DNA of 64,000 nucleotides. It comes from an uncultured Victivallis sp. (GTDB lineage: Bacteria > Verrucomicrobiota > Lentisphaeria > Victivallales > GWF2-50-93). The stretch lies in contig CAZRKP010000004.1 in the NCBI GenBank assembly GCA_964600895.1, forward strand, positions 125,321-189,320, given 5' to 3'. Shown piece by piece: positions 3,731-52,364 of the stretch. The first letter of the stretch is position 1, and each line of letters starts with the position of its first letter. A program made the position numbers and the translations under genes. Below the pieces are notes generated by a model, which saw only the letters and a list, made by a program, of their open reading frames with translations, ran no database searches and was not told where the DNA came from.

Positions 3731-4588
3731 TCATGGAATTCCCACACGGGTTATCGAATGTATATATTCACCATGGAGATCCGCATAGAGGAAATTGCGG
3801 TCGAAGTGATAGTTTTCCAGCGCATATGCAGAATAGAAACCTGCATCGTATTGGTCCGCAGGACCGCACAATGACTGGAAACCATGCGGTTCAAGCATCA
3901 CATCTGCGGTCTTACTATATACGGAAGGACATCCCAGAAAGGCTATCTGCGATAATGTGAATTCAACAGGTGTATAGCCGGAGATCCTGACACCCCACTT
4001 TGCCTGGGTGGCCGCAGATCCGTTATGACGCCCCATCCTCCACATTCCCGTAAGGGCACCGTTGTTGCCGACACATGCTGCCCTGGCATGAGGTCCGTTA
4101 TATACATAAATTCCAAAAGTTGAGTTATAATATCCTCCATAGTAGGAAAATCCATTGGGGAGATTTCCCGTACAGACGCTGATCCCATCCGGAACCCATT
4201 TCTTATGAGTTACATATCCTCTTCCTGCAAGTCGGTGCCAGGCGCCTTTCTGATTTCCTGAAGAAGATGGATCTTCATCGGTCTGGTTGGGTACATACCC
4301 GTTCCAGGCGACAGTTGGAGGAGAGCCATACCATTTTCCGCAGGATTCATCGCCCCAGTTCTGGGCCCAGTCGTTCGTGTCGTTATCGTAGTTGGTAGGA
4401 TATTCGGTGAAGTCAAGGGCATATGCTGTAAGTGCTAGGCCAAGCTGCCGCTGGTTACTCATACAGTTAAGCACTCTGGCCTTCTCCTTGGCATTTTGCA
4501 ATGCCGGAAGCAAAAGCCCAATAAGAATTGCGATGATCGCAATTACCACGAGAAGTTCGATGAGGGTAAATCTTTTAGAAACATTCAT
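3731..4588 (-). CDS. prepilin-type N-terminal domain protein, H-X9-DG/DUF1559-like (P1)
   Basis: N-terminus MNVSKR|[33 protein letters not shown]-terminal motif [20 protein letters not shown] lies 6 nt upstream of the ATG. Confidence 0.9.
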
Positions 4589-4670
4589 TTTCTTCTCCCC
4601 TTCAACTTATCAGAAGTTTTTTCCAAGTATTGGCTACCTATCCATCTGCTACTGTCATCTGCAAGACATC

Positions 4671-4703
4671 ATGTTATCGTATTATTATATTATATGATAA
4701 CAT
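4671..4703. promoter_or_regulatory. inverted repeat ATGTTATC-N17-GATAACAT, candidate operator/promoter upstream of P1
   Basis: Perfect 8-bp arms at 4671-4678 and 4696-4703 flank an AT-rich spacer containing TATAAT-like hexamers. It lies in the 212-bp gap between the regulator stop (4801) and the P1 start (4588). Confidence 0.3.
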
Positions 4704-4800: not shown

Positions 4801-5982
4801 TCAGCCTGCTTTCAGCTCATTTTCGAAAATCGTACCGATGATGGCTTTATGGTAAGCAGGCCCGGTGCTTCTCCAGGAACGAAGCATGCTTAGTGCGGTT
4901 TCAAGAATCTTGCTGGCATCAAATCCTAGACGGACAACTGGAACTGAAGAACTCGGAGGACATGGAAAATTGCAATGGGCCACTACCTCAAGATCTGAGG
5001 GAACCTTGACACCTGACTTCGCAATTCCCATTGTTACGGATTCCACAAGATTATCATCCGTTATTATCAAACCGTCGGGAATTTCATTTCCGGCTCCATA
5101 GAACATTATCCTTGCAAGATTCTCCCCTGGAGAAGTCTCATAGATGCTCATACCCTGAAGCCACTGTGGACCAGATGTCATCCCATATTCCCTTATTTTC
5201 TCAATCCATTTTCTGCTCGGATGGAATATCCATGGATGACCGATGACTGCAATCTTTTTTTTCCCTTTTCCCTTCAGATATTCAAGCGACCTGTCCTGGA
5301 AACTCATCCCATCAATACTGAACTTCGATATCTCCGGATAAAGGTCGGGGCGGTCCATCAAGGCACACCGCGGAATGCCAGTCTCCTTCAGTATTGGAGT
5401 CCTGTCAACCAGAAAGGGAGGTGAAGTGAAAAAGATCCCCATGATCTTCTTCCTTTTTACATTGTCGACCAGAGACACCTGTTCCGGACTGTCCGTCCAG
5501 CCATTGATTTTTATATTGCTGAACTGGAATATTTTCAGGCCGTCATCACGTTTCTTCTCTGCGGCTACCGACAACGCCTTCCACAATAGACTGCTCTCCT
5601 TGCTCTGAGGAAAGACCATTGCGACATTGACCGTATTAGGAGGATTTTTAACCACATACGTCCCTGCCGGCCTTTCCGTACGAAGAAAACCATCGGCCTC
5701 GAACTGGTCAATTATATTCTGGATGGTGATCGGACTTGCACCATATTCCTGGCACAGCTGGCGCCGAGTAGGTATGCGCTCCCCGGGTTTCCACTTGCCA
5801 TCATATATGAAGTTTTTCAGAAGTGATGCTATCTCCTGGAACCTCTCATCCGTAGGCCCTCTCCTGCAGGGCTTGTGCGGTTTTGAATCAAAAGCATTGA
5901 TTTCTGTCCCGCACTGCGGACAGAACAAGGAGAAAGGGCTGACCTTGCGTCCCTTGATCTTGGATTTTCCCGGCATATGCAT
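4801..5982 (-). CDS. chimeric transcriptional regulator: GntR-type winged HTH plus LacI/GalR-type sugar-binding domain (AraR-like architecture)
   Basis: GntR-like segment: GERIPTRRQLCQEYGASPITIQNIIDQFEADGFLRTERPAGTYV. It is followed by about 270 aa with a periplasmic-binding-fold look (KKIAVIGHP..., LIITDDNLVESVTMGIAKSGVKVPSDLEVVAHCNF). GGAG lies 4 nt upstream of the ATG at 5982. Confidence 0.8.
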   Translation of the reverse strand: MHMPGKSKIKGRKVSPFSLFCPQCGTEINAFDSKPHKPCRRGPTDERFQEIASLLKNFIYDGKWKPGERIPTRRQLCQEYGASPITIQNIIDQFEADGFLRTERPAGTYVVKNPPNTVNVAMVFPQSKESSLLWKALSVAAEKKRDDGLKIFQFSNIKINGWTDSPEQVSLVDNVKRKKIMGIFFTSPPFLVDRTPILKETGIPRCALMDRPDLYPEISKFSIDGMSFQDRSLEYLKGKGKKKIAVIGHPWIFHPSRKWIEKIREYGMTSGPQWLQGMSIYETSPGENLARIMFYGAGNEIPDGLIITDDNLVESVTMGIAKSGVKVPSDLEVVAHCNFPCPPSSSVPVVRLGFDASKILETALSMLRSWRSTGPAYHKAIIGTIFENELKAG

Positions 5983-6202: not shown

Positions 6203-7165
6203 TCATTCGGAAGCCTTGGAGACGCACCCAGGCCTTGTATTATCAGTGACTACCCTATGGGCTATGTCCCTGAGGAATGTGGCGTCCTCATCGGACATCT
6301 TCTGCGGCTTGAACTTGATCTTGCGGACATCCTCCTTGAAGAAGAATTCAAACCAAACGCATCCTCCAAGGTACTCTCCTGCGGAATTCGCATGGTGGCT
6401 GTCAAAGTTCAACTTCTTATCCTTCCATGAATATCCGGCATTCAGGGAATGGACTTCCTTTGGAAGTTCCGGAGGTTTTGCGTTCTTGTAATCAAAGCTA
6501 TCGTCATGCTTGAACTGCCATTCAGGCGACTCGTAAGCCAGCTGGAACGCAGCTCCCACGGGAATGATCCGGCAACCGAGTTCCTTGGCAATCGTGGTAT
6601 ATGCATCGGTAAGCTGCTGGTACATCTTCACTGAAGTGAAACCATCCTTGAAAAGCTGCTTGTCATCAGCACGGTATGCCCATGTCTGGTGGATGATCAC
6701 CTCGGCGTCAGGCGCATATTTCTTGATATAGTCGTATAGGTTCTTCGCGTAAGGACGGTAGGTATCGATCTTGTAGCTGAACATGCTGAACTGCTGGATG
6801 GACACGTACTGCCATTTCCCACCCTGGAGAATTTCCTTGAGACTGGCCTTCTTTCCATTGAATGTATATGGCTTGCCTTCGGGATCATCCGGGTTCGCCT
6901 CATACTTCTGGGCCAGGTTCCAATGCTTTTCCATCGGGCAACCGCCAATCGATGCGTGGGCGAAGACAAGTTCACAGTTCCCTGAATCCTTGACAATGTC
7001 CTTGAGATATTTCGAGGCATTGCCCGAAAAGCTGTTGCCTATCGCAAGAAGCCTTATCTGCCTTACATCTCCCTTCTCAGCAGAAACGGTGTTCTCCTGT
7101 GCCGCCAGATCAATCACCAGGAAGGTTAACAGTCCATAGATGAGCGAACGGATCAGATTATTCAC
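6203..7165 (-). CDS. DUF4886 / SGNH-like esterase family protein, exported
   Basis: GTG start at 7163-7165 immediately follows an in-frame TAA, with AAAGGAGA upstream. N-terminus: MNNLIRSLIYGLLTFLVIDLAAQ; motif: IRLLAIGNSFSGNASKYL. Confidence 0.75.
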   Translation of the reverse strand: MNNLIRSLIYGLLTFLVIDLAAQENTVSAEKGDVRQIRLLAIGNSFSGNASKYLKDIVKDSGNCELVFAHASIGGCPMEKHWNLAQKYEANPDDPEGKPYTFNGKKASLKEILQGGKWQYVSIQQFSMFSYKIDTYRPYAKNLYDYIKKYAPDAEVIIHQTWAYRADDKQLFKDGFTSVKMYQQLTDAYTTIAKELGCRIIPVGAAFQLAYESPEWQFKHDDSFDYKNAKPPELPKEVHSLNAGYSWKDKKLNFDSHHANSAGEYLGGCVWFEFFFKEDVRKIKFKPQKMSDEDATFLRDIAHRVVTDNTRPGCVSKASE

Positions 7166-11197: not shown

Positions 11198-12109
11198 TTA
11201 TCGGGCATCCTTGACAGAAACATAGCTCCTGAAGCGTTTCGGTGGAACGCCTGTGAATTTCCTGAATGCCCTGGAGAAATAGTTTGCATCTTCGAAGCCA
11301 CAGGCCAATGCGACTTCGGACAGAGGCATGTCGGTCCTTTCCCTTAGCAGACGGCTCGCCTTCGAGATCCTTATCCTTAATAGATATTGGATAGGCGTGC
11401 ATCCCGCGGTCCTGCTGAAATACCGGATGAAGGATCTTTTCGACATGCAGGCCACGGAACAGAGCTTCTCAAGGCTTATGTCCTCGTGGCAGTGCGTCTG
11501 CATGTATGGGAAGACCTTGCCAAGTCCGCTCCATCTGCTTTCAACCCTTGCATCCCTGCTTTCCGAATACCTGCATGCGGTTATCAGCAGCTGCAAAAGG
11601 AGCAGTGATGACATTTCATCGGAGGCGGCGTCCGGCTGGAACTGCTCCCTTTCGATCCTGTTGACCAGCAAAAGGCACTCATCAAGTCTTTCAATGGTAA
11701 GATTCGCAGGCTGGATGAAGCGACCAGTGAGCATATGGGAGAAAAGAGTCCTGTATCCATGGCAAAGCGAAAGCACGTTTTTCCTGTCAGTTATGAAGTC
11801 TTTCCGGATCAGGACGTTGATCAGCTTGAAGTCCCTGCAGTCCTGATATGCATGTTTCATGCTGCTGTCGACAAGGAAGAATGTACCTGGCTCGATCCTG
11901 ATCTTGGTCTTTCCGAACACATGAGTCGCGGATCCTCCGATTACGAACACAAGCTCGTTGAAATCGTGGGTGTGCTGGACGGTGTCGGCCTGGTTGACCC
12001 TCTGAACGATCACAGACGAGTTCTCCCCGCCGAGGCAGAGCTTGCTGAACAGATACCGTGTGTAACTTCCTGGACGGTTTTGCGGAATACTCTTGATTTT
12101 AAGCGCCAT
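11198..12109 (-). CDS. AraC family transcriptional regulator (cupin plus HTH)
   Basis: N-terminal cupin-like region HTHDFNELVFVIGGSATH. C-terminal AraC HTH: LSEVALACGFEDANYFSRAFRKFTGVPPKRFR. Confidence 0.9.
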   Translation of the reverse strand: MALKIKSIPQNRPGSYTRYLFSKLCLGGENSSVIVQRVNQADTVQHTHDFNELVFVIGGSATHVFGKTKIRIEPGTFFLVDSSMKHAYQDCRDFKLINVLIRKDFITDRKNVLSLCHGYRTLFSHMLTGRFIQPANLTIERLDECLLLVNRIEREQFQPDAASDEMSSLLLLQLLITACRYSESRDARVESRWSGLGKVFPYMQTHCHEDISLEKLCSVACMSKRSFIRYFSRTAGCTPIQYLLRIRISKASRLLRERTDMPLSEVALACGFEDANYFSRAFRKFTGVPPKRFRSYVSVKDAR

Positions 12110-12258: not shown

Positions 12259-13863
12259 ATGACATTCGCATCAGCATTCTTGTCGGCATCGTTCGGATTC
12301 CTTCTCCTGTCCGCAATTGACTCCCGGGCTCAGGCCCAGGCAGCCGCTGAACCGTCAGTCGGTAATGTGGTTTTGAAACTGGACTTCGACAAGCAGGAGG
12401 ACAGGGAGAAATTCACAAAGGCACCGTGGGCCAAATGGGTGAAGGACGGGGAAAACGGACCGACAGTCCTATTCGTAGATGTTCCGGCAACTGAGAAGCC
12501 CGGACACAACAAGATAAATATGCCGTTCGATGTCAGTGCATATCGCGGCACCTCCCTCTGCTTCCAGTGCATGGCAAAGGCGGAGAAGGTAACACAGCCC
12601 CCACAAACATACAATGGCGTGAAGTTCATGATGCATACTGTATCCACCTCCTCCGGGCAAAGCTGGAAGAACCAGGATAAGGTGTTTGGGACTTTTGATT
12701 GGAAAAAACTTTCCTTCACAGTACCGATCCCCGATGATTTTGTAAAAGGCGATATTGCTCTCGGGCTTGAGAACAGCACCGGCAAAGTATGGTTCAAGGA
12801 TATCAAGGTGTTCGTCGCCCGGACAAAGGCTCCACCGCGCCCTGCACCGATGGCCAATCCCCCTCCGATGTACAAGGGACACGACCTTCCGCGTCTGCGC
12901 GGGACAATGTCACCGAATCACTTCAGCGACGAGGACATGCGCGTCCTCGGGCAGGAGTGGAAGGCAAACTTGATACGCTGGCAGATGACCAGGTCCTGGG
13001 GTCAGGCGAATGTCGGACGCGACCTTGCCGACTACGACAAGTGGCTTGATGGAAAGCTCGAAGACCTCGACAAGGCTCTTGTGGCCTGCAAGAAATACGG
13101 GATCAAGGTTGTCATCGACCTTCACAGTCCCCCCGGAGGCCGTTACGAAGACAGCTCGATGGCGATGCTGCGCGAAAAGGAATTTCAGGATCATTTCGTG
13201 AAGGTATGGGAGAAGATTGCCACACGTTACAAGGGAAATCCTGCCGTGTGGGCATACGATCTTATCAACGAGCCTGTCAGCGGGGAACCCTCCACGGATG
13301 GACTTGCCGACTATCTCGGAATACAGGTACTTGCCGCGAAGGCGATCAGGAAGATCGATCCTGACACTCCTATCATCATAGAATCTGACAGTTGGGACAG
13401 CCCGGAGGCGTTTTCGTATCTGCAACCTGTGGACGTCAAGAATGTCATATATCAGGCGCACATGTATTATCCGGGCACATTCACTCACCAGGGAGTGAAC
13501 AACAATCCGGACAGCAACGTTTCATATCCTGGAATGATCAACGGAAAGATGTGCGACAAGGAGGCTCTGAGGAAATACCTCCAGCCGGTCCGCGACTTCC
13601 AGCTCGCATATAATGTCCATATCTATATAGGTGAGTTCAGCGCCATCCGCTGGGCGCCCGGCGACAGCGCCTACAATTATTTAAAAGACTGTATCGAGAT
13701 CTTCGAGGAATACGGCTGGGATTGGAGCTACCACGCGTTCCGCGAGTGGAACGGCTGGAGCGTAGAATATGGGCCGGACAAGAACGACAACCAGCCCGCG
13801 AAGGAAGAGACCAGCCGCAAGAAGCTTCTTCTTGAATGGTTCTCCAAGAACAAGAAACCGTGA
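12259..13863 (+). CDS. glycoside hydrolase family 5 with N-terminal CBM-like jelly-roll domain, exported
   Basis: GAGGAG RBS and a signal peptide. Motifs: VVIDLHSPPGG, WAYDLINEP (acid/base NEP), IYIGEFSAIRW (nucleophile E), FEEYGWDWSYHAF. Confidence 0.85.
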   Translation: MTFASAFLSASFGFLLLSAIDSRAQAQAAAEPSVGNVVLKLDFDKQEDREKFTKAPWAKWVKDGENGPTVLFVDVPATEKPGHNKINMPFDVSAYRGTSLCFQCMAKAEKVTQPPQTYNGVKFMMHTVSTSSGQSWKNQDKVFGTFDWKKLSFTVPIPDDFVKGDIALGLENSTGKVWFKDIKVFVARTKAPPRPAPMANPPPMYKGHDLPRLRGTMSPNHFSDEDMRVLGQEWKANLIRWQMTRSWGQANVGRDLADYDKWLDGKLEDLDKALVACKKYGIKVVIDLHSPPGGRYEDSSMAMLREKEFQDHFVKVWEKIATRYKGNPAVWAYDLINEPVSGEPSTDGLADYLGIQVLAAKAIRKIDPDTPIIIESDSWDSPEAFSYLQPVDVKNVIYQAHMYYPGTFTHQGVNNNPDSNVSYPGMINGKMCDKEALRKYLQPVRDFQLAYNVHIYIGEFSAIRWAPGDSAYNYLKDCIEIFEEYGWDWSYHAFREWNGWSVEYGPDKNDNQPAKEETSRKKLLLEWFSKNKKP

Positions 13864-13911
13864 AGAAGGGTCGTCGGTCGCCAGTTGTCAGTGCAAGAGG
13901 GAGGACAGCAA

Positions 13912-14721
13912 GTGAAATATTTTCGATGTAGATTTTCAATTTTCGATTTGAAGAGAAATGATCCTGGATCCAAGATCCAAGATGCCAGATATTTTAATCC
14001 GGTATCCAGCATCCAGTATCCAGCATCAGCATTCACTCTTATCGAGCTTCTCTTGGTGATTGCAATCATCGGGATACTTGCCGCCTTGATGCTGCCTGCT
14101 CTTAGGAACGCCAAGGAGATGAGCAAGCGTATTGCCTGTTTAAATATTGAACGACAAATAGGCCTGGCGGGAAGTTCCTATTCTGATGACCACAATGGAT
14201 ACTGGGTCCCCTGTGGCCCCTGTAACGGAACCAGCGCCTGGTATAAAAATGCCAGCCTTATGCAATCCCTGGGAGTACCAACACATCCAGCCGATTACGC
14301 ATACTGGACCGGGGATTTTGTCTGTCCCAATGCAACTCTGTCATTCAAAACTGTGCAAACAAATGGAGGGCGGAATTATTACCATATTGCATTTTCATTT
14401 GGAGCCCCATACTACTACGATATCCCAAACAGCACCTACGTCCCATTTCTCACTAGACAGGTCAAGAATCCGGCAAACAGAATGGCCTGGGCGGATGGAA
14501 CTGACTGGGATCTCAACATGTATCAGACATATTATCCTGACAACTACGGCAAGTATGGCGAACAGCATTCGGTCCCGCTGGGAATTGTGTGCATAACAGC
14601 CTACAGGCATCCGGGAATCTCGGCGAACCTCGTCTATTTCGACCTCCATGCAGAATCCTTGCCCTGGAGGGAAATTTACGCAAAAAGCAATTCATCAAAA
14701 TTGTATGATCCTGTCAACTGA
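13912..14721 (+). CDS. prepilin-type N-terminal domain protein, H-X9-DG-like, with long repeat-encoded leader (P2)
   Basis: The ORF-track start at 13885 is TTG. I prefer GTG at 13912, preceded by GAGGGAGGA with a 6-nt spacer. Leader: ...[20 protein letters not shown]|[30 protein letters not shown]-terminal motif [19 protein letters not shown]. Confidence 0.85.
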
Positions 14722-34209: not shown

Positions 34210-35262
34210 TTATCTTCTCCTTGTTTTAATTTCCGCTGTCACCTCAACACAGCTTTCCCCTTTCTCCCATACAGGTGTCGTCAGCCGGCTCGGAATCTTT
34301 TCAGCAGGCCTGGAGATTTTTTTCATTAGCATCTCCACCGCGATCCTTCCTATATCCACCTCGGGAAGCGTTATATAATCAAGCTGTATGCCCATTGAAC
34401 GGTCCTGATGGTCGCCAAACATCACAAATGAAACATCGTCCGGAACCCTGATCCCCTTCCTTGTCATCTGCATCATGAAGAATGGGGCATCCGCATGCTG
34501 ATATCCAATTACCGCCGTAGGAGTTCTTGTCCGGAAGGAATCCCACCACGCATTGAAGCTTTCCTTCTTTTTAACATGGTCGAAATCCATCAGTCCTGGC
34601 TTCATAGGTGACAATCCGCATTTCTTCATGCCTCGCAGATATCCGTCTTGTCGGTTCTTCACGCTGTGAGGTTCCTGTGAAGGAGAAGGGGAAGGAAACG
34701 CATGAAGGTATGCTATCCTCCTGTGCCCCATCGCGTACAGTCTCCGGACTGCCATTTCAGCGCCTTCGCCATCATCCGGGCACACGCAATCATACGGGAG
34801 ATCACGGTTGATCCATATTGCCGGTATCTTGTAGTTAGAAATAATTCTGTCCAGGGCTGGAGGGACCAGATGCGAGTAGTTTAGAATGAGTCCGTCGACG
34901 GATAGCTCCGAAAGGACTCGTGGCATAAGCTCCTCTGATGTAAGCTTGTCGTCGGAGAACCTTGAGAATATCACGAGCTTGTCGTTCTCCTGTGCCGCAT
35001 ATATGATGGCGTCCTGCATGCTCAACGGCAGGTAACTGCGGTGTCCTTCCGTGCTGAGGAGGACGGCGATCATTCCGGTGCTTCCGGACTTTATGGCACG
35101 GGAGCTGGCGTTCGGACGATATCCCATGCTGAGGGCTGTCCTGCGGATCCTTTCGCGGAGTTCTGGTCCGACCTTCGGACTGTCTGTGAATGCGCAGGAC
35201 ACCGTGGCCTGGTTTATTCCGAGCACCTGTGCTATTTCCGCCTGTGTCACCGGCTTCTTCAT
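34210..35262 (-). CDS. LacI family transcriptional regulator
   Basis: ORF 34210..35334. The start [25 protein letters not shown] at 35262 has GGAGGGAAGA upstream. A PBP1-type effector domain follows. Confidence 0.9.
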
Positions 35263-35477
35263 TCTTCCCTCCAAATCTCTTTTGCTTAGCAATACCATAC
35301 GTATGGTATTTTGCCATTTCAAGCCACGGAACAAATATTTATTGAAGTTTTTTCAGAAGACATTGGAGTGTAGGTCTTCCAGGTTCTTCCTGTGGCAATA
35401 AACTGACGGACCCAATGCAGGATTATCTTGAAATTTCCGTCTTTTACGTTTGACAATATGGATCAAGTGAAATATTA

Positions 35478-47558: not shown

Positions 47559-47662
47559 GAAAATCCTCCTTTTTTCAATTGTCCAAATTTACTTGATTTT
47601 ATATATTTTACTTCTTATTTTATGCAGTGGAGGATTTTATAAATTAAGAAACTGGTAATTTG

Positions 47663-48535
47663 ATGAATTCGTTCGTATACCATACTGGCGCTCCTGAACT
47701 AGAGATGTTCCCTCATATCAAGATGATGGGGCGCGGCATAGTCACGGACTCCTCCCGCCACGCCCTGCCAATCCACCGGAATCCGGGGATTGAGATCTGC
47801 CTGCTCCAGAAGGGAAGGTTCGAGTGGACGATAGAAGGCATCCGATATGTGATGTATCCCGGCGACTGTACCTTCACCATGCCATGGCAGGAGCACGGCG
47901 GGACACAGGGGATAATGGACATCGGTCAGCTCCTATGGATCATAATAAAGCCAATAAGCTTCAGCAAGAAAGGAGAGCTGGATTTAGGGAAATGGTCTTC
48001 GCTCCGCCCAGAACAGCAGAAATGGATCGGAAAGACACTGGTCAATGCACCCCGCCCATATTTCACGGCAAGCAGTTATCTCAAACTGCTCTATGAGGAA
48101 ATTGTTTCTGATATGCATGGCACATCAAAGTGGCGCAAGGATCGGGTAAATCGTCTGCTCGATGAACTTCTGTTCCTTGTGACGCTGGAATCTGAAAAGT
48201 CGAAACTGATTCGCAAGACCACTTTCGACATCGGCCTGATGAAAGGCAAAATATCCGCGGACATCACCCGCAGCTGGAGTCTTGATGACCTTGAGAAACT
48301 CAGCGGCTACGGGAAGAGCATGCTGAACCAGCTAATCAGGTCGCAGACCGGTTACTCAAGCATGGGACTCGTCACAAGCCTTAGGATTGAAAAGGCGAAA
48401 GATCTGCTTTCCAGGAGCTACAAGCCCATGGGAATGATCGCACTCGAATGCGGATTCACCAACAGCCAACAGTTCTCCGCCGTGTTCAGAAAACATGCCG
48501 GAAGAACTCCTTCCCAGTTCAGAAAAAAATCATAG
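47663..48535 (+). CDS. AraC family transcriptional regulator
   Basis: The ORF-track start at 47660 is TTG; ATG follows at 47663. C-terminal HTH: IALECGFTNSQQFSAVFRKHAGRTPSQFR. Confidence 0.9.
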   Translation: MNSFVYHTGAPELEMFPHIKMMGRGIVTDSSRHALPIHRNPGIEICLLQKGRFEWTIEGIRYVMYPGDCTFTMPWQEHGGTQGIMDIGQLLWIIIKPISFSKKGELDLGKWSSLRPEQQKWIGKTLVNAPRPYFTASSYLKLLYEEIVSDMHGTSKWRKDRVNRLLDELLFLVTLESEKSKLIRKTTFDIGLMKGKISADITRSWSLDDLEKLSGYGKSMLNQLIRSQTGYSSMGLVTSLRIEKAKDLLSRSYKPMGMIALECGFTNSQQFSAVFRKHAGRTPSQFRKKS

Positions 48536-48661
48536 ACCTTCCTTTGGGACTGCTTCTGCCTTTAATACCAATGGTTATATTTTATGATTTATTTTAATTG
48601 TAATACTTGACATAATATCCTTATATAGTAGCTTAATGGTTATATAATTGGTTATATATTT

Positions 48662-50041
48662 ATGAACTTTAAATACAACCATACTGCACAGAAGGCCTTG
48701 GAGATCGCCAGGACAGCCGAAGGCCGGCTCCCAAGCGAAAGGGAGCTCTGCGGAATATGCGGGGTCAGCAGGATCACTGCAAGAAAAGCACTTGAATATC
48801 TTCGTCGAAAGGGCATAGTCACAAGACATGTCGGCAAAGGCACATTCCTTGCGAAAGGTGCAAATCTCCCAAAGGTAACTTTCATGATGGTTTCCCCTTC
48901 CACACCTCCGGAGATCAAGGATCATCTCCATCGGGAAGCGGAAATATTCTTCGGGTCCAAGGATAAAACCCCGGTAGAATTCAAGGAAATAGACGAGAAT
49001 GTCGTTTCGGCGATCCAGGGAGGAGGAACGAAGATCGTCTTCTGGCCGTATATTGGACGCCTTTCAAACCTTGGAGCATTCGCATGTCTTGATGAACTTC
49101 CAGGTTTCTACGAGACCTGTTCAAGGATTGAAGCCTCCTACTGCGACTGGCACCGCGGCCTTGACGGCAGGATGAGATGCACTGCAGTACCTATGAACTT
49201 CAATGCAAGTGTTTTCAGCTTCAACCACAAGTTCGCAAAGAACATTGGACTGGATGCGAATGCCGGACCACAAAGCTGGGATGAAATCATCGAGTGGGGG
49301 GAGAAATGTTCAAAGGCCGGGAAAATATATCCGACATACGTGCCCAGCGAATTAAGGTTTGCCCTTCCTCTCGCATACTATTTCACCTCGTCGGGCGGCA
49401 GGGATTATCTGGAGGAAACCTCCTCAGGCCTCAGATTGGATTTCTCCGCGGGGGTTAAATGGCTCGAATTCTTCAGGCGTCTCCATTCGATTCCCGGCAA
49501 CTACAAGATGACATCGTTCGGTCCTGATCCTCTTACCAGGCGCAAAAGCCTTTTCAGCTGCGATGTCGGTACTTGGATATTATATCACCGTGGCTCAAAA
49601 CTCAGTTCTGAACTGTCAGTAACGCCGATCCCGCCAGTACGCAAGGGTGGCACTTCATTTACACAGGTAACTAAGAACTGCATGGGCATTGTTCCAGGCG
49701 GTGATCCAGCCGGAGTGGAGATCGCCTGGTCGTTTGTCAGGCATCTGATCTGCGACACCGATGCACAGGCGAGGCTTGCTGACGCCTTCCCGGTGCTCTC
49801 GGTAAACAGGGATGTCCTAAGAAGGCAGAGCGAGCAGACGGAATGGAAAATCTTCATCGATGCGTTCCGCTCCGGGAAATCCTTCTCCTCCCATCCGATC
49901 AGGTTCGGTCTTAACGCACTCATAAGGGAATGCTACGATGACTGCATGCGTGGCAACCTGACACCAGTGGAGGCCGCCGAAAAGATCCAGAACGTCGGTG
50001 AACTCCTGATAAAGATAGAAAGGGAGAGAACATGGTTCTGA
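48662..50041 (+). CDS. chimeric regulator: GntR-type winged HTH fused to a family-1 solute-binding-protein-like domain, no signal peptide
   Basis: N-terminal GntR-like segment: [40 protein letters not shown]. The remainder resembles ABC sugar SBPs ([35 protein letters not shown]). Confidence 0.8.
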
Positions 50042-50862
50042 GACAAAAAATTACGATCCTGGATACTAGATACAAGATACTAGATTCCAATTCCCGATAT
50101 CCAGTATCCAGCATCCAGCATCCGGTATCGGTTTTTACATTAATCGAACTGCTTGTCGTCATTGCGATCATCGCAATCCTTGCGGCATTGCTCCTGCCCG
50201 CATTGAGGGAGGCGAAGCTGACAGCGCACCAGGTGTCCTGTCTTTCAAAGCTCAGGCAGATGCAGATAGCCAGTTTCGCATACGCCTCCGACTACAATGA
50301 GTGGTTCATTCCGATATACACGCTATTTGACAAGGTCACTCCGGCAGCCAGGACCTGGGCCGAAGACGAGAATACTCGTCAATACCTGTCACTAAAACCA
50401 TTCAAACCGGTCTGGTATGCGGAAGTACCTGTCGACATGACCTGCGAGGATGCATCATATACCCGTTCAAATGTAAATCCGAATGGCAGCGTGAACATGC
50501 GCAGTTCCTATGGAATGAACTACAGCGAATACATGGACTGGACTTTCGGCGACCTGTTCCTTTATTCAGCAACAGCGCCTGTTCCGGCATTTGTCGTATA
50601 CAGCGTCGTGAGAGTGAAGAATCCGAGCACCAAGATGGCCTGGGCCGATTCTCTGTCACCCTCCATCCGCGTAGCCGGCTCCTCCGGATACACCGGGGAA
50701 AAATATCCTAACCCGAATGACCAGATTGCATACCGCCACCGGAATGGAGCAAACATCATCTATTACGACGCGCACGGGGAAAAACTAAAACGAACTCTTA
50801 TCGATAAGGCCTATATTTCACAGGCGGAAATAGACAAGCTTTGGTACGCGTACAAGGATTGA
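50032..50862 (+). CDS. prepilin-type N-terminal domain protein, H-X9-DG-like, with long repeat-encoded leader (P5)
   Basis: ATG at 50032 has a GGGAG RBS inside the 3' end of the regulator gene and overlaps it by 10 nt. Leader: [34 protein letters not shown]|[29 protein letters not shown]-terminal motif [18 protein letters not shown]. Confidence 0.85.
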
Positions 50863-50903
50863 GTGATTTTTATTAAGGAATCTTTCAAAATGTGGGTTTT
50901 ACA

Positions 50904-50968
50904 GGAGCGCGGGTTTTCCAACCCGCGAAAGTTTAACTCAAAATGGCGGACTGGAAAGTCCGCCCTCC
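50904..50968 (-). repeat. double-hairpin REP-like element, copy 3 (orientation B)
   Basis: Sequence: ggagcgcgggtt-ttcc-aacccgcg ... ggcggac-tggaaa-gtccgccctcc. Confidence 0.7.
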
Positions 50969-50976
50969 GTTTTTTT
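50945..50976 (+). terminator. possible intrinsic terminator formed by the distal hairpin of REP copy 3
   Basis: Stem ggcggac / gtccgcc with a 6-nt loop, then ctccg and ttttttt (50970-50976). It lies downstream of P5. Confidence 0.4.
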
Positions 50977-51026
50977 AAAATATCTTAATTGAAAAACTTA
51001 TAATATAGAAAGGATTTCCCATCAGC

Positions 51027-52364
51027 ATGAAATTTTCAACCTTTTCCCTTATCGGCTTCATCCTATTGAACTCCCTCTCTCTTTTTGCTGCCTCTTCCTG
51101 GGACGGCAAATCCCAGGTGGAATATGTGCTTTCCGTCAACACGGACCGGACGGACGCGATTTATAAAAAGAGTGAAAAAGTCACTTTCAATATCACACTG
51201 GAACAGAACAAGCAGCCTGCAAAGGAAGGAACGGTCGAATGGACCATATCCAAGGATGGAGTGCCTCCGATAGACAAGGGAAGCGTTGTTCTAAAGGACG
51301 GAAAGGCTTCTATCACCGGCAGTCTGAATGAACCTGGTTTCCTTCATTGCACAGTCGTCTTCAAGCGCGATAAGGACAAGTTCACTGCCATGGCAGGAGC
51401 GGCAATAGATCCGCTTGAGATCAAGGCAAGCCTTCCGGTACCGGACGATTTCGACGCATTCTGGGCCGCAAAGAAGAAGGAACTGGCGGCAATTCCTATC
51501 AATGCAAAGCTTACGCCTGTACCTCTGCCAGCAAACCGCAGCGGCGTGGAACTCTTCGAATACCAAGCCGATTGCATAGGAGCGCCGTCAGTCGGATATT
51601 TCGGCCGTCCAATAGGTGCAAAACCAAAAAGCCTGCCTGCAGTTTTGTTCGTACCCGGTGCGGGAGTCCGCAGTGCAAATCTTGATGCAACCGCAAGCTG
51701 GGCAAGCAACGGAATGCTCTTCATCGACCTCAACGCCCATGGGATCCCTGATGGAAAACCAAAGGAATTCTATTCTGCCCTCGACAGCGGAGAACTCAAG
51801 GACTACCGCACCCGTGGTCGCGAATCCAGGGACACATATTATTTCCTCGGTGTCTATCTCCGTGTCCTCCGTGCGATGGATTTCCTCACCTCCCAGCCAG
51901 AGTGGGATGGAAAGACACTCGTAATTGCCGGCGTCAGTCAGGGCGGAGGCCTCTCGATTGCCGGTGCGGCTCTCGAGCCACGCGTGACTTACATGATGGC
52001 ATTTGTCCCTGGACTGTCCGATCATTCAGGAATGGTGGCTGGTCGCATTGGCGGCTGGCCAAGGGTAATTCCAAATGGAGCTGACGGAAAACCGGATCCC
52101 AAGGTTCTGGAGACCATGCGTTATTTTGATTCCGCGAATTTCTGTACCCGTATCAAGGCTCCTGCGTATTTCGCAGTCGGATTCCTCGATGTCGTCTGTC
52201 CTGCCACCTGCGGTTATGCAGCCTACAACAACTTCACTGGGAAAAAGGAAATGATCAACTATCCTAATAATGGACACGACCTGGGCCCAGGAATCTGGGG
52301 AGACATGCGCAAGCAGATCCTTGCCCACATAGCGGAACAGGCAAAAACAAATTCTCCAAAATAA
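51027..52364 (+). CDS. acetyl xylan esterase / cephalosporin-C deacetylase family (CE7, AXE1) with N-terminal Ig-like domain and signal peptide
   Basis: Signal peptide MKFSTFSLIGFILLNSLSLFAAS. Motifs: the CE7 hallmark GVSQGGGLS, then YFDSANFCTRIKAPAYFAVGFLDVVCP and NNGHD. Confidence 0.8.
   Translation: MKFSTFSLIGFILLNSLSLFAASSWDGKSQVEYVLSVNTDRTDAIYKKSEKVTFNITLEQNKQPAKEGTVEWTISKDGVPPIDKGSVVLKDGKASITGSLNEPGFLHCTVVFKRDKDKFTAMAGAAIDPLEIKASLPVPDDFDAFWAAKKKELAAIPINAKLTPVPLPANRSGVELFEYQADCIGAPSVGYFGRPIGAKPKSLPAVLFVPGAGVRSANLDATASWASNGMLFIDLNAHGIPDGKPKEFYSALDSGELKDYRTRGRESRDTYYFLGVYLRVLRAMDFLTSQPEWDGKTLVIAGVSQGGGLSIAGAALEPRVTYMMAFVPGLSDHSGMVAGRIGGWPRVIPNGADGKPDPKVLETMRYFDSANFCTRIKAPAYFAVGFLDVVCPATCGYAAYNNFTGKKEMINYPNNGHDLGPGIWGDMRKQILAHIAEQAKTNSPK

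What the first reader, a model, noticed from the sequence alone, without database searches (positions are those of the whole stretch)
13964..14034. Leader of pilin-like gene P2 is encoded by two blocks of tandem heptanucleotide repeats (possible slipped-strand switch or structured leader)
Seen in the sequence:
- Immediately 5' of the FTLIELL codons there are four heptamers of the form GAT[CG]C[CA]A (gatccaa gatccaa gatgcca gatattt, 13967-13994).
- Five heptamers of the form [ACT]ATCC[AG]G follow (aatccgg tatccag catccag tatccag catcagc, 13996-14030).
- The region has no in-frame ATG/GTG/TTG after 13948, so it must be translated as a roughly 28-40 aa leader (...[20 protein letters not shown]|F).
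- The same two-block layout occurs in P5 at 50062-50132.
- Between the two genes the pilin domain differs at many synonymous sites. The leader codons gta tcc agc atc cag are identical, and cca/ccg and tca/tcg changes there are silent. This fits a translated leader that also has nucleotide-level constraint.
- cctggat at the start of block 1 is the reverse complement of the block-2 unit, so the two blocks can pair in several registers.

Inference: 7-nt or 14-nt units are not multiples of 3, so gain or loss of a unit would frameshift the gene, as in a contingency-locus ON/OFF switch. Alternatively the blocks form a regulatory mRNA structure or a heptad protein-binding array.
Basis: partly seen in the sequence, partly recalled or inferred. 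Interest (0 to 1): 0.7.

Follow-up and report, generated by a model that had tools for sequence, protein, structure and literature searches.

The report
Translated heptad-repeat palindrome in pilin leaders
Two pilin-like genes carry, between their start codon and the first residue of the mature protein, a translated ~70-nt imperfect palindrome of 7-nt repeats; it is a conserved, swappable module found only in Lentisphaerae pilin-like genes, and nothing suggests it is an ON/OFF slippage switch.

Summary
Both genes, P2 (F+1 codon at 14032) and P5 (50134), carry two 7-nt arrays, and no in-frame start lies downstream of them.

The two blocks are the arms of one imperfect palindrome: 32-nt arms, 72-75% complementary.
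- 5' arm: five units with GAT every 7 nt.
- 3' arm: five N-ATC-C-R-G units, ending 4 nt before the Phe+1 codon.

The same ~70-150-nt module sits in frame in 17 pilin-like genes of at least six Lentisphaerae/Victivallales MAGs. It was not seen outside pilin leaders in ~226 kb of their DNA.

It is absent or replaced in close orthologues. The breakpoints fall at about codon 5 and exactly at Phe+1.

The slippage-switch idea is not supported:
- At most two identical adjacent units.
- All 12 copies found without regard to reading frame are in frame.
- No leader-length variants in 90%-identity clusters.

A co-varying RNA stem is not supported either:
- Only the invariant cores pair.
- G.U 26 versus A.C 40.
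- No strand asymmetry.

The best reading is a cis-acting heptad module of unknown factor and effect. A tolerated, non-adaptive repeat insertion is almost as likely.

(YATCCRG)n arrays are also widespread elsewhere, mostly just upstream of start codons.

The parts
13897..13905 (+). Shine-Dalgarno-like GAGGGAGGA, 6 nt upstream of the probable P2 start GTG 13912
   Evidence: Sequence. JGI gene calls use GTG 13912 (P0250) or TTG 13948 (P0132). NCBI/ENA truncate the gene to a start inside the TM segment (P0249).
13912..14721 (+). P2, a pilin-like gene (269 aa from GTG): 40-aa leader, then [24 protein letters not shown]...
   Evidence: ORF. PF07963 N_methyl scores 23.4 bits against a cut-off of 21.2. 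Homologues at ~50% identity have 5-10-aa leaders.
13932..13952 (+). Remnant of a second heptamer family (ATTTTCA ATTTTCG ATTTGAA), translated as FSIFDLK
   Evidence: Sequence. The same units and peptide occur in leaders at L021 minus-strand 6289, L143 1899-2010 and L146 (P0074).
13959..13990 (+). P2 5' arm: five units with GAT every 7 nt (TGATCCT GGATCCA AGATCCA AGATGCC AGAT)
   Evidence: Contains out-of-frame ATGs at 13958 and 13985.
13991..13996 (+). P2 6-nt spacer or loop (ATTTTA) between the arms
   Evidence: The arm-to-arm gap equals 6 modulo 7 in 11 of 17 leaders.
13997..14028 (+). P2 3' arm: five N-ATC-C-R-G units. The last ATC ends 4 nt before the Phe+1 codon.
14032..14052 (+). FTLIELL codons: first residues of the presumed mature protein and right boundary of the module
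48662..50041 (+). GntR + SBP_bac_8 regulator gene. Its stop codon (50039-50041) overlaps the P5 start.
50022..50028 (+). Shine-Dalgarno-like GGGAGAG upstream of the P5 start ATG 50032
   Evidence: Sequence.
50032..50862 (+). P5, a pilin-like gene (276 aa) with a 34-aa leader [34 protein letters not shown]
   Evidence: called with this start in 9 contigs. N_methyl scores 19.6 bits, just under the cut-off.
50054..50085 (+). P5 5' arm: five GAT-phase units (CGATCCT GGATACT AGATACA AGATACT AGAT)
50086..50098 (+). P5 13-nt spacer or loop
50099..50130 (+). P5 3' arm: five N-ATC-C-R-G units ending 4 nt before the Phe+1 codon at 50134
50134..50862 (+). P5 body. Homology to the second tandem paralogue of a Victivallis MAG starts exactly at the Phe+1 codon.
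   Evidence: blastn gives 84% identity to L020 6139-6867. The region upstream of F+1 instead follows the first paralogue, L020 3795-5984, at 70.7%.

Best explanation
What is shown:
- The two blocks are the arms of a discrete ~70-77-nt module built from oppositely oriented 7-nt repeats. The 5' arm has GAT every 7 nt. The 3' arm has N-ATC-C-R-G.
- The module lies in frame between an ordinary pilin start (SD, start codon, a few codons) and the Phe+1 codon of DUF1559-type pilin-like genes.
- The heptamer has no stop codon in any frame, so the module is read through. This gives a 34-40-aa leader instead of the usual 4-8 aa.
- The module is a conserved, Lentisphaerae-specific nucleic-acid element. 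It is shared by non-orthologous pilin-like genes in several species and is gained, lost or replaced between close relatives.

What is inferred:
- It acts in cis at the head of the pilin-like gene. The functional units are the heptad cores (A2, T3, C4, G7), not a co-varying stem.
- The most likely mode is recognition of the inverted heptad array by a repeat-binding factor on duplex DNA, gating transcription into the pilin/CAZyme genes.
- Alternatively the loose fold-back it forms in the mRNA tunes translation or decay.
- Unit number drifts by slippage over evolutionary time, but selection holds the gene in frame. It is not a fast ON/OFF switch.
For: Distribution:
- A genome-collection scan over 185,579 species returned only Lentisphaerae/Victivallales MAGs. 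All 10 true hits have the GAT arm, the ATC arm and an open frame to an upstream start.
- Five further leaders in four loci, reached through four protein hits found independently of the DNA pattern, have the same layout.
- In ~226 kb of Lentisphaerae DNA, arrays occur only in pilin leaders.

Position:
- The last ATC ends 4 nt (in two cases 5 nt) before TTY in 17 of 17 leaders. The arm-to-arm gap equals 6 modulo 7 in 11 of 17.

Conservation:
- Eight leaders from at least four genomes align to one consensus: GATnCAGGATCCAGGATCCAGGATGCCAGAT-nTTnAAAn-CCAGTATCCAGCATCnAGCATCCAGCATC.
- This holds although P2 and P5 are only 35% identical as proteins and differ at many synonymous sites in the TM-coding region.
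- Codon choice follows the heptamer rather than the peptide.

Core versus stem:
- Core positions pair in 76-88% of aligned cells. Variable positions pair in only 40-51%, against 27-43% expected if the arms were independent.
- This is what arrays of a recognised core predict.

Precedent and parallels:
- Contiguous direct and inverted 7-bp repeats are the binding sites of the ribbon-helix-helix omega/ParB protein of pSM19035 (PMC9499535).
- A second, unrelated leader module (FTLIELL repeats plus a GC stem-loop) occupies the same junction in close orthologues.
Against: - No binding factor, promoter or transcript end is known.
- The array lies inside an ORF, not in a promoter.
- Rapid turnover: P2 homologues at ~50% identity and several P5 homologues have short leaders. 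Syntenic loci L146 and L021 carry entirely different inserts. This fits relaxed constraint equally well.
- The two arms differ systematically at heptad position 6: R in the 3' arm, and T or A in the complemented 5' arm. The site is therefore not a true dyad.
- The same heptamer forms arrays in many unrelated bacteria with no pilin gene nearby (0 of 127). Heptamers are the commonest long simple repeats in prokaryotes (Mrazek 2007, as cited in PMC4679880). A purely mutational origin is plausible.
Confidence: 0.35

Rival explanations
1. Non-adaptive repeat or quasi-palindrome. A heptanucleotide simple-sequence repeat and its inverted copy arose by slippage or template switching, or were copied between paralogues by recombination at the conserved pilin 5' end. 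They persist only because the leader ahead of Phe+1 is dispensable and the unit has no stop codons.
For: - Leader content turns over between close relatives. P0001 versus P0122 and P0074 versus P0131 are at least 90% identical in the body but have unrelated leaders.
- Breakpoints lie at about codon 5 and exactly at F+1.
- Arm unit numbers vary independently, 2-9 versus 2-6.
- There is no covariation, no G.U excess (26 versus 40) and no strand preference (8 of 16).
- Heptamer arrays of this and other units are common in metagenomes.
- Heptamers are the most abundant long SSR class (PMC4679880).
Against: - Within the ~226 kb of Lentisphaerae DNA, arrays are confined to pilin leaders and never lie in intergenic DNA.
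- An inverted arm is present in every leader examined, against 24 of 98 generic arrays.
- The unit sequence, spacer and junction phase are conserved across species whose orthologous genes are only 70-85% identical.
Confidence: 0.3
2. Sense-strand mRNA stem-loop. The hairpin lies 12-50 nt after the start codon and directly before the TM-coding segment. It would tune translation or mRNA stability of the pilin-like gene.
For: - MFE is -24 kcal/mol with z of about -4 for both window copies. Across the 16 leaders, 13 have z of -3.2 or lower; the other three are between -2.6 and +0.1.
- The hairpin ends 0-5 nt before F+1 in 14 of 16.
- An unrelated stem-loop module, with an apical stem varying as CCCCGCG/GCGGGG, GCATGC/GCATGC and CTCCGCG/GCGGAG, occupies the same place in orthologues.
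- Generic YATCCRG arrays lie within 50 nt upstream of long ORFs, 19 times in sense orientation and 5 times in antisense.
Against: - The RNAalifold covariation term is -0.01, and nearly all pairs are invariant.
- About one third of aligned positions are unpaired. G.U 26 versus A.C 40.
- For the two window copies the antisense strand folds much better: -31.6 and -42.0 against about -22.
- No Rfam family matches.
- No intrinsic terminator on the + strand.
Confidence: 0.2
3. Contingency locus. Gain or loss of 7-nt units by slipped-strand mispairing switches the gene ON and OFF within populations.
For: - The unit is not a multiple of 3 and lies inside the ORF.
- A simulated change of one unit removes every in-frame start in P5. 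In P2 a gain of one unit brings ATG 13958 into frame.
- Unit numbers differ among loci.
- Heptamer tracts drive hmw phase variation in Haemophilus (PMC8262952, PMC12721329).
Against: - At most two identical adjacent units, so the tract is short and imperfect.
- 12 of 12 frame-blind copies are in frame.
- DNA is identical in seven assemblies, although these were selected by protein identity.
- No leader-length variants in ~12 clusters.
Confidence: 0.06
4. Antisense-strand element. The palindrome works on the minus strand, for example as a terminator or 3' hairpin of an antisense RNA covering the conserved pilin 5' coding region.
For: - The antisense fold is far more stable in both window copies, because A.C mismatches become G.U.
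- In P5 the antisense hairpin is followed by UAAUUUUUUG (from the sequence).
- A terminator-like site is flagged on the minus strand at 13983-13961.
Against: - Across 16 leaders there is no consistent strand preference (8 of 16; Wilcoxon p = 0.86).
- The U-rich antisense tail follows automatically from the Lys/Arg-rich (AAR/AGR) codons at the start of the leader.
- No antisense promoter was identified.
Confidence: 0.05

Closest known systems
Heptad-repeat binding sites of the RHH protein omega/ParB of plasmid pSM19035 (parS and operator arrays; PMC9499535)
   Same: Contiguous 7-bp units in mixed direct and inverted orientation. At least four units are needed there. An invariant core is recognised in each unit rather than pairing between units.
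   Different: Those arrays lie in promoter or centromere regions of a plasmid and the protein is known. Here the array is chromosomal, lies inside a translated leader, has a 6-13-nt spacer between the arms, and has no known partner.
TAACTGA-type heptamer direct repeats upstream of start codons (Beggiatoaceae, cyanobacteria, Bacteroidetes; PMC4679880) and cyanobacterial STRR heptamers (own knowledge)
   Same: Seven-nt units in sense orientation, abutting the start of the coding or mature sequence. Function is unknown and post-transcriptional control has been proposed. Generic YATCCRG arrays in metagenomes behave the same way.
   Different: Those repeats are intergenic, untranslated, mostly direct repeats, and precede genes of all kinds. 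Here they are translated, paired with an inverted arm, and restricted to one gene family.
Simple-sequence-repeat contingency loci, e.g. the heptamer tract of Haemophilus hmw1A/hmw2A (PMC8262952, PMC12721329)
   Same: Seven-nt tandem units associated with a surface or adhesin-type gene. In principle slippage alters expression.
   Different: The hmw tracts are long, perfect, promoter/5'-UTR arrays with documented copy-number polymorphism. Here there are 4-5 imperfect units inside the ORF and no observed polymorphism.
Rickettsia palindromic elements (RPE) inserted in frame in protein-coding genes (own knowledge: Ogata et al. 2000)
   Same: A palindromic repeat read through as extra peptide in a tolerant part of a protein. 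The copies are related at the DNA level and sit in non-orthologous genes.
   Different: RPEs are dispersed over many unrelated genes and have a ~100-150-bp consensus without heptad periodicity. This module sits at a single defined junction of one gene family.

Membership tests
SSR contingency (phase-variable) locus | Long, near-perfect tandem tract | tested here: not met
   4-5 units per arm, at most two identical adjacent units, TRF 83-88% matches.
SSR contingency (phase-variable) locus | Unit length not divisible by 3, placed so that slippage changes the frame or expression | tested here: met
   7-nt units lie between the start codon and F+1. A simulated change of one unit abolishes the in-frame start in P5.
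SSR contingency (phase-variable) locus | Copy-number polymorphism, including OFF alleles, among near-identical strains | tested here: inconclusive
   No variants in 7 contigs (biased by exact-protein look-up) or in ~12 clusters at 90% identity. 12 of 12 frame-blind copies are ON.
Conserved structured cis-regulatory RNA | Match to a described RNA family | tested here: not met
   Rfam 15: no hit at gathering threshold in the window or in 13 related loci; only a chance snoRNA hit (E = 2.3) at the E-value threshold.
Conserved structured cis-regulatory RNA | Base pairs maintained by compensatory or wobble changes | tested here: not met
   RNAalifold covariation term -0.01; 11 of 13 pairs show no compensatory change. 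G.U 26 versus A.C 40; sense strand more stable in 8 of 16. Variable heptad positions pair at 40-51%.
Conserved structured cis-regulatory RNA | Folding energy below the shuffled controls | tested here: met
   z = -4.6 and -3.9 for the window copies. z is -2.1 to -6.8 in 15 of 16 leaders.
Type IV prepilin-like (N_methyl) protein with a class III signal peptide | N-terminal methylation motif with FTLIEL, Glu+5 and a hydrophobic helix | tested here: met
   PF07963: P2 scores 23.4 bits (cut-off 21.2) and P5 19.6 bits, just below it. FTLIELL plus a hydrophobic stretch is seen.
Type IV prepilin-like (N_methyl) protein with a class III signal peptide | Short basic leader ending in Gly at position -1 | tested here: not met
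   Leaders are 34-40 aa and end in Ala or Val. The four other pilin-like genes of the window end in P, R, K and N. Whether cleavage occurs is unknown.
Heptad-array protein-binding site (omega/ParB pSM19035 type) | At least four 7-bp units with a conserved core, in direct and/or inverted orientation | tested here: met
   5 + 5 units in each window copy. Core A2, T3, C4 and G7 are conserved in both arms.
Heptad-array protein-binding site (omega/ParB pSM19035 type) | A cognate repeat-binding protein, and a location at a promoter or centromere | not tested
   No candidate protein was sought. The array lies inside an ORF. No sigma-70-like promoter was found nearby.
5'-UTR heptamer direct repeats (TAACTGA type) | Intergenic, untranslated, immediately upstream of the start codon | tested here: not met
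   The arrays lie downstream of the only usable start codons and upstream of F+1. Generic YATCCRG arrays in other bacteria do meet this feature.
In-frame palindromic insertion element (RPE-like) | Related palindromic copies translated inside non-orthologous genes | tested here: met
   Eight leaders from at least four genomes align. The host genes are as little as ~35% identical.
In-frame palindromic insertion element (RPE-like) | Dispersal over many unrelated gene families | tested here: not met
   All copies in ~226 kb precede FTLIELL.

The most novel reading that the evidence does not exclude
The leader/mature junction of Lentisphaerae pilin-like genes may be a dedicated, structure-marked site. 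Two interchangeable fold-back modules sit exactly there: the heptad palindrome and the FTLIELL-repeat stem-loop. They could be read by an unknown repeat-binding factor as a regulon-wide 'address'. Or they could act as a recombination or insertion hot spot that lets pilin bodies be re-coupled to different sugar-regulated leaders. The second idea resembles structure-initiated pilin variation at the Neisseria pilE G4, which I recall from my own knowledge. The breakpoints at F+1 are compatible with this but do not demonstrate it.
Probability: 0.12. Interest if true: 0.8.

Novelty: new variant of a known kind. Interest (0 to 1): 0.45.

Why it matters
Heptanucleotide repeats are the most abundant long simple repeats in prokaryotes, yet their function is essentially unknown (PMC4679880). 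This case is unusually tractable.
- The array is confined to one gene family.
- It sits at a fixed phase relative to a defined codon.
- It is translated, and it comes with natural 'with' and 'without' alleles in syntenic loci.

That makes it possible to test directly whether heptad arrays act as protein-binding sites, as RNA structures, or as neutral slippage products.

It also matters for annotation. Gene callers disagree on the start of such genes, and NCBI truncates P2 into its TM helix.

Finally, it bears on how the very large pilin-like (DUF1559) families next to sugar regulators and CAZymes in Lentisphaerae are controlled and diversified.

Tried and rejected
- **Known RNA family.** Rfam at gathering threshold on the window and on 13 related loci, and at E-value threshold on 13850-14150, gave nothing real.
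- **Attenuator or terminator on the sense strand.** No terminator-like site on the + strand. The U-run after the hairpin is inconsistent across loci.
- **Translation starting after the repeats.** No ATG, GTG or TTG lies between the arrays and F+1. The codon at -1 is GTG in only two leaders (L011, L020).
- **Operator of the adjacent regulator.** In the window, two short-leader pilin-like genes also follow GntR/LacI-type regulators, so that adjacency is not specific to the hairpin leaders. The same heptads also occur next to different regulators.
- **Sense-strand RNA selection.** Tested with a G.U versus A.C census, a sense versus antisense MFE comparison and RNAalifold. All were negative.
- **Peptide-level function.** Codon usage follows the heptamer. 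P2 and P0074 differ by more non-synonymous than synonymous changes in the 5' arm (reading).
- **Pilin specificity of the heptamer itself.** Rejected: 0 of 127 metagenome arrays precede FTLIE.
- **Failed look-ups.** The exact look-up of P2 failed with my start choices. P0162 could not be located.
- **Not built.** I did not build a covariance model, because pattern searches and the alignment already answered the copy-number question.
Full report
**1. The observation**

The window (49% G+C) encodes six pilin-like proteins with an FTLIELL N-terminus.
- Four have ordinary leaders: MRRP|F, MNVSKR|F, MKRK|F and ...MKKHSN|F.
- Two, P2 (F+1 codon at 14032) and P5 (50134), have long ones.

Tandem Repeats Finder reports period-7 arrays at 13967-83, 13997-14027, 50062-85 and 50098-129. 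The pattern YATCCRGYATCCRG with up to one mismatch gives 8 hits against 0.40 expected, and none of 100 shuffles reaches 8. Apart from one weak hit at 6432, all hits lie in these two leaders.

No in-frame ATG, GTG or TTG lies between 13948 and F+1 in P2. P5 has a single in-frame ATG, at 50032. Both genes have a good Shine-Dalgarno sequence upstream of the repeats:
- P2: GAGGGAGGA at 13897-13905, before GTG 13912.
- P5: GGGAGAG at 50022-50028, before ATG 50032. That ATG overlaps the stop of the upstream GntR-SBP regulator gene.

**2. The two blocks are one quasi-palindrome**

| Copy | 5' arm | 3' arm | Complementarity | Gap |
|---|---|---|---|---|
| P2 | 13959-13990 | 13997-14028 | 72% | 6 nt |
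| P5 | 50054-50085 | 50099-50130 | 75% | 13 nt |

Both copies also pair in shifted registers. As RNA each folds to -24 kcal/mol, with z = -4.6 and -3.9.

The 5' arm has GAT every 7 nt. The 3' arm has N-ATC-C-R-G. Seven and three are coprime and the unit has no stop codon in any frame, so the array always reads as a cyclic permutation of HPASSIQ. The 5' arm reads as xQDxG or ILDxxY.

**3. Distribution**

Homology searches with P5 and P2 return thousands of DUF1559/N_methyl proteins. About 10% of the top hits carry leaders of the same kind, for example MKKMIQDTGCKMQDEG...YPVSGIKHPASL|F. The closest relatives of P2, at ~50% identity, have 5-10-aa leaders.

I scanned one genome per species (185,579 species) for the DNA pattern I-x-[HYN]-P-[AV]-S-x-FTLIE. 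It returned 12 loci.
- Ten are real, and all ten come from Lentisphaerae/Victivallales MAGs.
- Each has a GAT-phase arm, an ATC-phase arm and an open frame back to an upstream start.

Five further leaders in four loci, reached through four protein hits rather than through the DNA pattern, show the same layout.

Geometry across 17 leaders:
- The last ATC ends 4 nt (twice 5 nt) before the TTY of Phe+1.
- There are 2-9 GAT units and 2-6 ATC units.
- The arm-to-arm gap equals 6 modulo 7 in 11 of the 17.

Eight leaders from at least four genomes align to a common ~85-nt consensus that includes the spacer. P2 and P5 are nevertheless only 35% identical as proteins and differ at many synonymous sites in the TM-coding region.

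Codon choice follows the heptamer, not the peptide. The Ala/Val codon is always GCA or GTA, Pro is CCR, and Ser is TCN.

**4. It is a module that is gained, lost and replaced**

P0122 is at least 90% identical to P5 in the body but has an unrelated leader, [36 protein letters not shown]0131 and P0074 differ in the same way.

blastn of the window against the Victivallis MAG locus L020 shows the following.
- The regulator plus P5 (48634-50862) aligns with the regulator plus the first tandem paralogue there, at 70.7%.
- From exactly the F+1 codon onward, the P5 body matches the second paralogue much better, at 84%.
- The downstream gene then continues in synteny at 80%.

The syntenic loci L146 and L021 are 75-85% identical up to codon 5 and again from the F+1 codon. 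Between those points one carries a 157-nt heptamer leader and the other carries three FTLIELL-repeat modules totalling 217 nt.

The module is thus an insert between a normal short leader and Phe+1, with precise boundaries.

**5. Tests of mechanism**

*Contingency switch.*
- The tracts are short and imperfect.
- All 12 copies found without regard to frame are in frame.
- Seven assemblies are identical, although they were selected by protein identity.
- No cluster shows leader-length variants.
- A simulated change of one unit would switch P5 off, and a gain of one unit would bring ATG 13958 into frame in P2.

The logic is sound, but there is no sign that it operates.

*Sense-strand RNA structure.*
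- No Rfam family matches, and there is no sense-strand terminator.
- An unbiased arm-to-arm alignment of 16 leaders gives 443 Watson-Crick positions, 26 G.U, 40 A.C and 148 transversion-type positions.
- The sense strand is the more stable one in 8 of 16 (Wilcoxon p = 0.86).
- For the two window copies the antisense fold is much stronger: -31.6 and -42.0 against about -22.
- RNAalifold finds only invariant GAU/AUC and G/C pairs, with a covariation term of -0.01.

*Per-position analysis.* Heptad positions 2, 3, 4 and 7 pair in 76-88% of cells. Positions 1, 5 and 6 pair in 40-51%, against 27-43% expected if the arms were independent. Position 6 is systematically non-complementary.

The arms therefore behave as oppositely oriented arrays sharing a core, not as a co-evolving stem.

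*Link to the neighbouring regulator.* Several hairpin-leader genes directly follow or face GntR/LacI-type sugar-sensing regulators, but so do two short-leader genes in the window. The adjacency is a general feature of these loci and not of the module.

**6. Wider context**

I scanned metagenomes for at least three YATCCRG units. The scan hit its 120-locus limit.
- None of 127 arrays precedes FTLIE.
- The arrays come from organisms of 36-68% G+C and often sit beside other heptamer arrays.
- They lie within 50 nt upstream of a long ORF 19 times in sense orientation and 5 times in antisense.
- The ORFs they precede look unrelated to one another, judging by eye from their N-termini.
- Of 98 arrays, 24 have a GAT-phase arm upstream and none has one downstream, against a 2.5% background.
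- Some spacers contain a box resembling CCCCTTGACA-N17-ACGGTT.

This matches what is described for TAACTGA repeats. It also matches the known excess of heptamers among long simple repeats (PMC4679880).

Contiguous direct and inverted heptads are proven protein-binding sites in pSM19035 (PMC9499535). Long heptamer tracts drive hmw phase variation (PMC8262952, PMC12721329).

Literature searches on DUF1559, Victivallis/prepilin and H-X9-DG found nothing describing this leader module.

**7. Verdict**

Shown:
- A conserved, Lentisphaerae-specific heptad quasi-palindrome is translated as part of the pilin-like leader.
- It sits at a fixed phase to Phe+1 and is swapped or lost among close relatives.

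Inferred:
- It is a cis-acting nucleic-acid module whose functional units are the heptad cores. They are most likely read by a repeat-binding factor. Less likely, they act through the loose mRNA fold-back. Confidence 0.35.
- A non-adaptive repeat insertion tolerated in a dispensable leader is nearly as likely (0.30).
- A fast slippage switch is unlikely (0.06).

The feature appears undescribed. It is a new variant of known kinds: heptanucleotide repeat arrays and translated palindromic inserts.

Noticed in passing
L020 710-791 and 6061-6139; L021 4016-4238 and minus-strand 6289-6370; L016 minus-strand 4615-4696; L010 1434-1515; L142 minus-strand 6584-6665; L143 1899-2088 (not in the window): A second leader type: one to three partial FTLIELL copies, each followed by a ~55-nt element GTGCC(C/A)GCC(A/G)TAGCT-[GC stem-loop]-GAGCGACGGCGAGAGC that ends at the next Phe codon. 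It is translated, e.g. as VAVPAIAGMRKHGATARATR. The apical stem varies as CCCCGCG/GCGGGG, GCATGC/GCATGC and CTCCGCG/GCGGAG. Many modules are 27 codons long, about the length of a pilin N-terminal helix. MFE reaches -42 kcal/mol and there is no Rfam match.
   Followed up: partly
window 48634-51846 versus L020 3795-7726: Relative to a Victivallis MAG with two tandem pilin paralogues, the window has one gene. Its leader and upstream region follow paralogue 1 (70.7%), and its body, starting exactly at Phe+1, follows paralogue 2 (84%). This looks like a deletion or fusion by recombination in the conserved N-terminal coding sequence.
   Followed up: yes
window 4804-5982(-), 34213-35334(-), 48662-50041(+), 11201-12109(-), 47660-48532(+): The window has a repeated, PUL-like layout: a sugar-sensing regulator (GntR or LacI HTH plus a periplasmic-binding or SBP domain, often with an AraC-type gene nearby), then a pilin-like DUF1559 gene, then CAZymes or esterases (GH5, GDSL, AXE1). 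Three of the six pilin-like genes directly follow such a regulator.
   Followed up: partly
metagenome loci L022-L141, e.g. L058, L064, L068, L089, L113: (YATCCRG)n arrays are widespread outside Lentisphaerae, usually just upstream of start codons and often without a visible SD. When an inverted arm exists it is always upstream (24 against 0). In one high-GC group the spacer holds a conserved promoter-like box CCCCTTGACA-N17-ACGGTT, so the array would start at about +1 of the transcript.
   Followed up: partly
window 13912-14721 (P2): Public gene calls disagree on the start. JGI uses GTG 13912 or TTG 13948. NCBI/ENA start at a GTG inside the TM helix (MIAIIGIL...), which removes the FTLIELL motif. 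Such leaders cause systematic mis-annotation.
   Followed up: yes
window F+1 codons at 4570(-), 16110(+), 34196(-), 61818(-), 14032(+), 50134(+): None of the six pilin-like proteins has Gly at position -1. The residues there are R, P, K, N, A and V. Whether a canonical prepilin peptidase processes them is an open question.
   Followed up: no
L009 + ~379 (leader ...AATCGGCAATCGGCAATCGGCAATAAA|F); L021 minus-strand 6289; L143 1899-2010; P0022: Other heptamer families occupy the same leader position: AATCGGC, AATCGTC paired with TTTTCGA, and GTTTCAA read as NLKLET.../...SSFKFQVS. The common denominator is 7-nt periodicity, mostly with an ATC core, rather than one unit sequence.
   Followed up: partly
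window 6432-6445: An isolated TATCCGGCATTCAG, two units with one mismatch, not next to a pilin gene. Probably chance.
   Followed up: no
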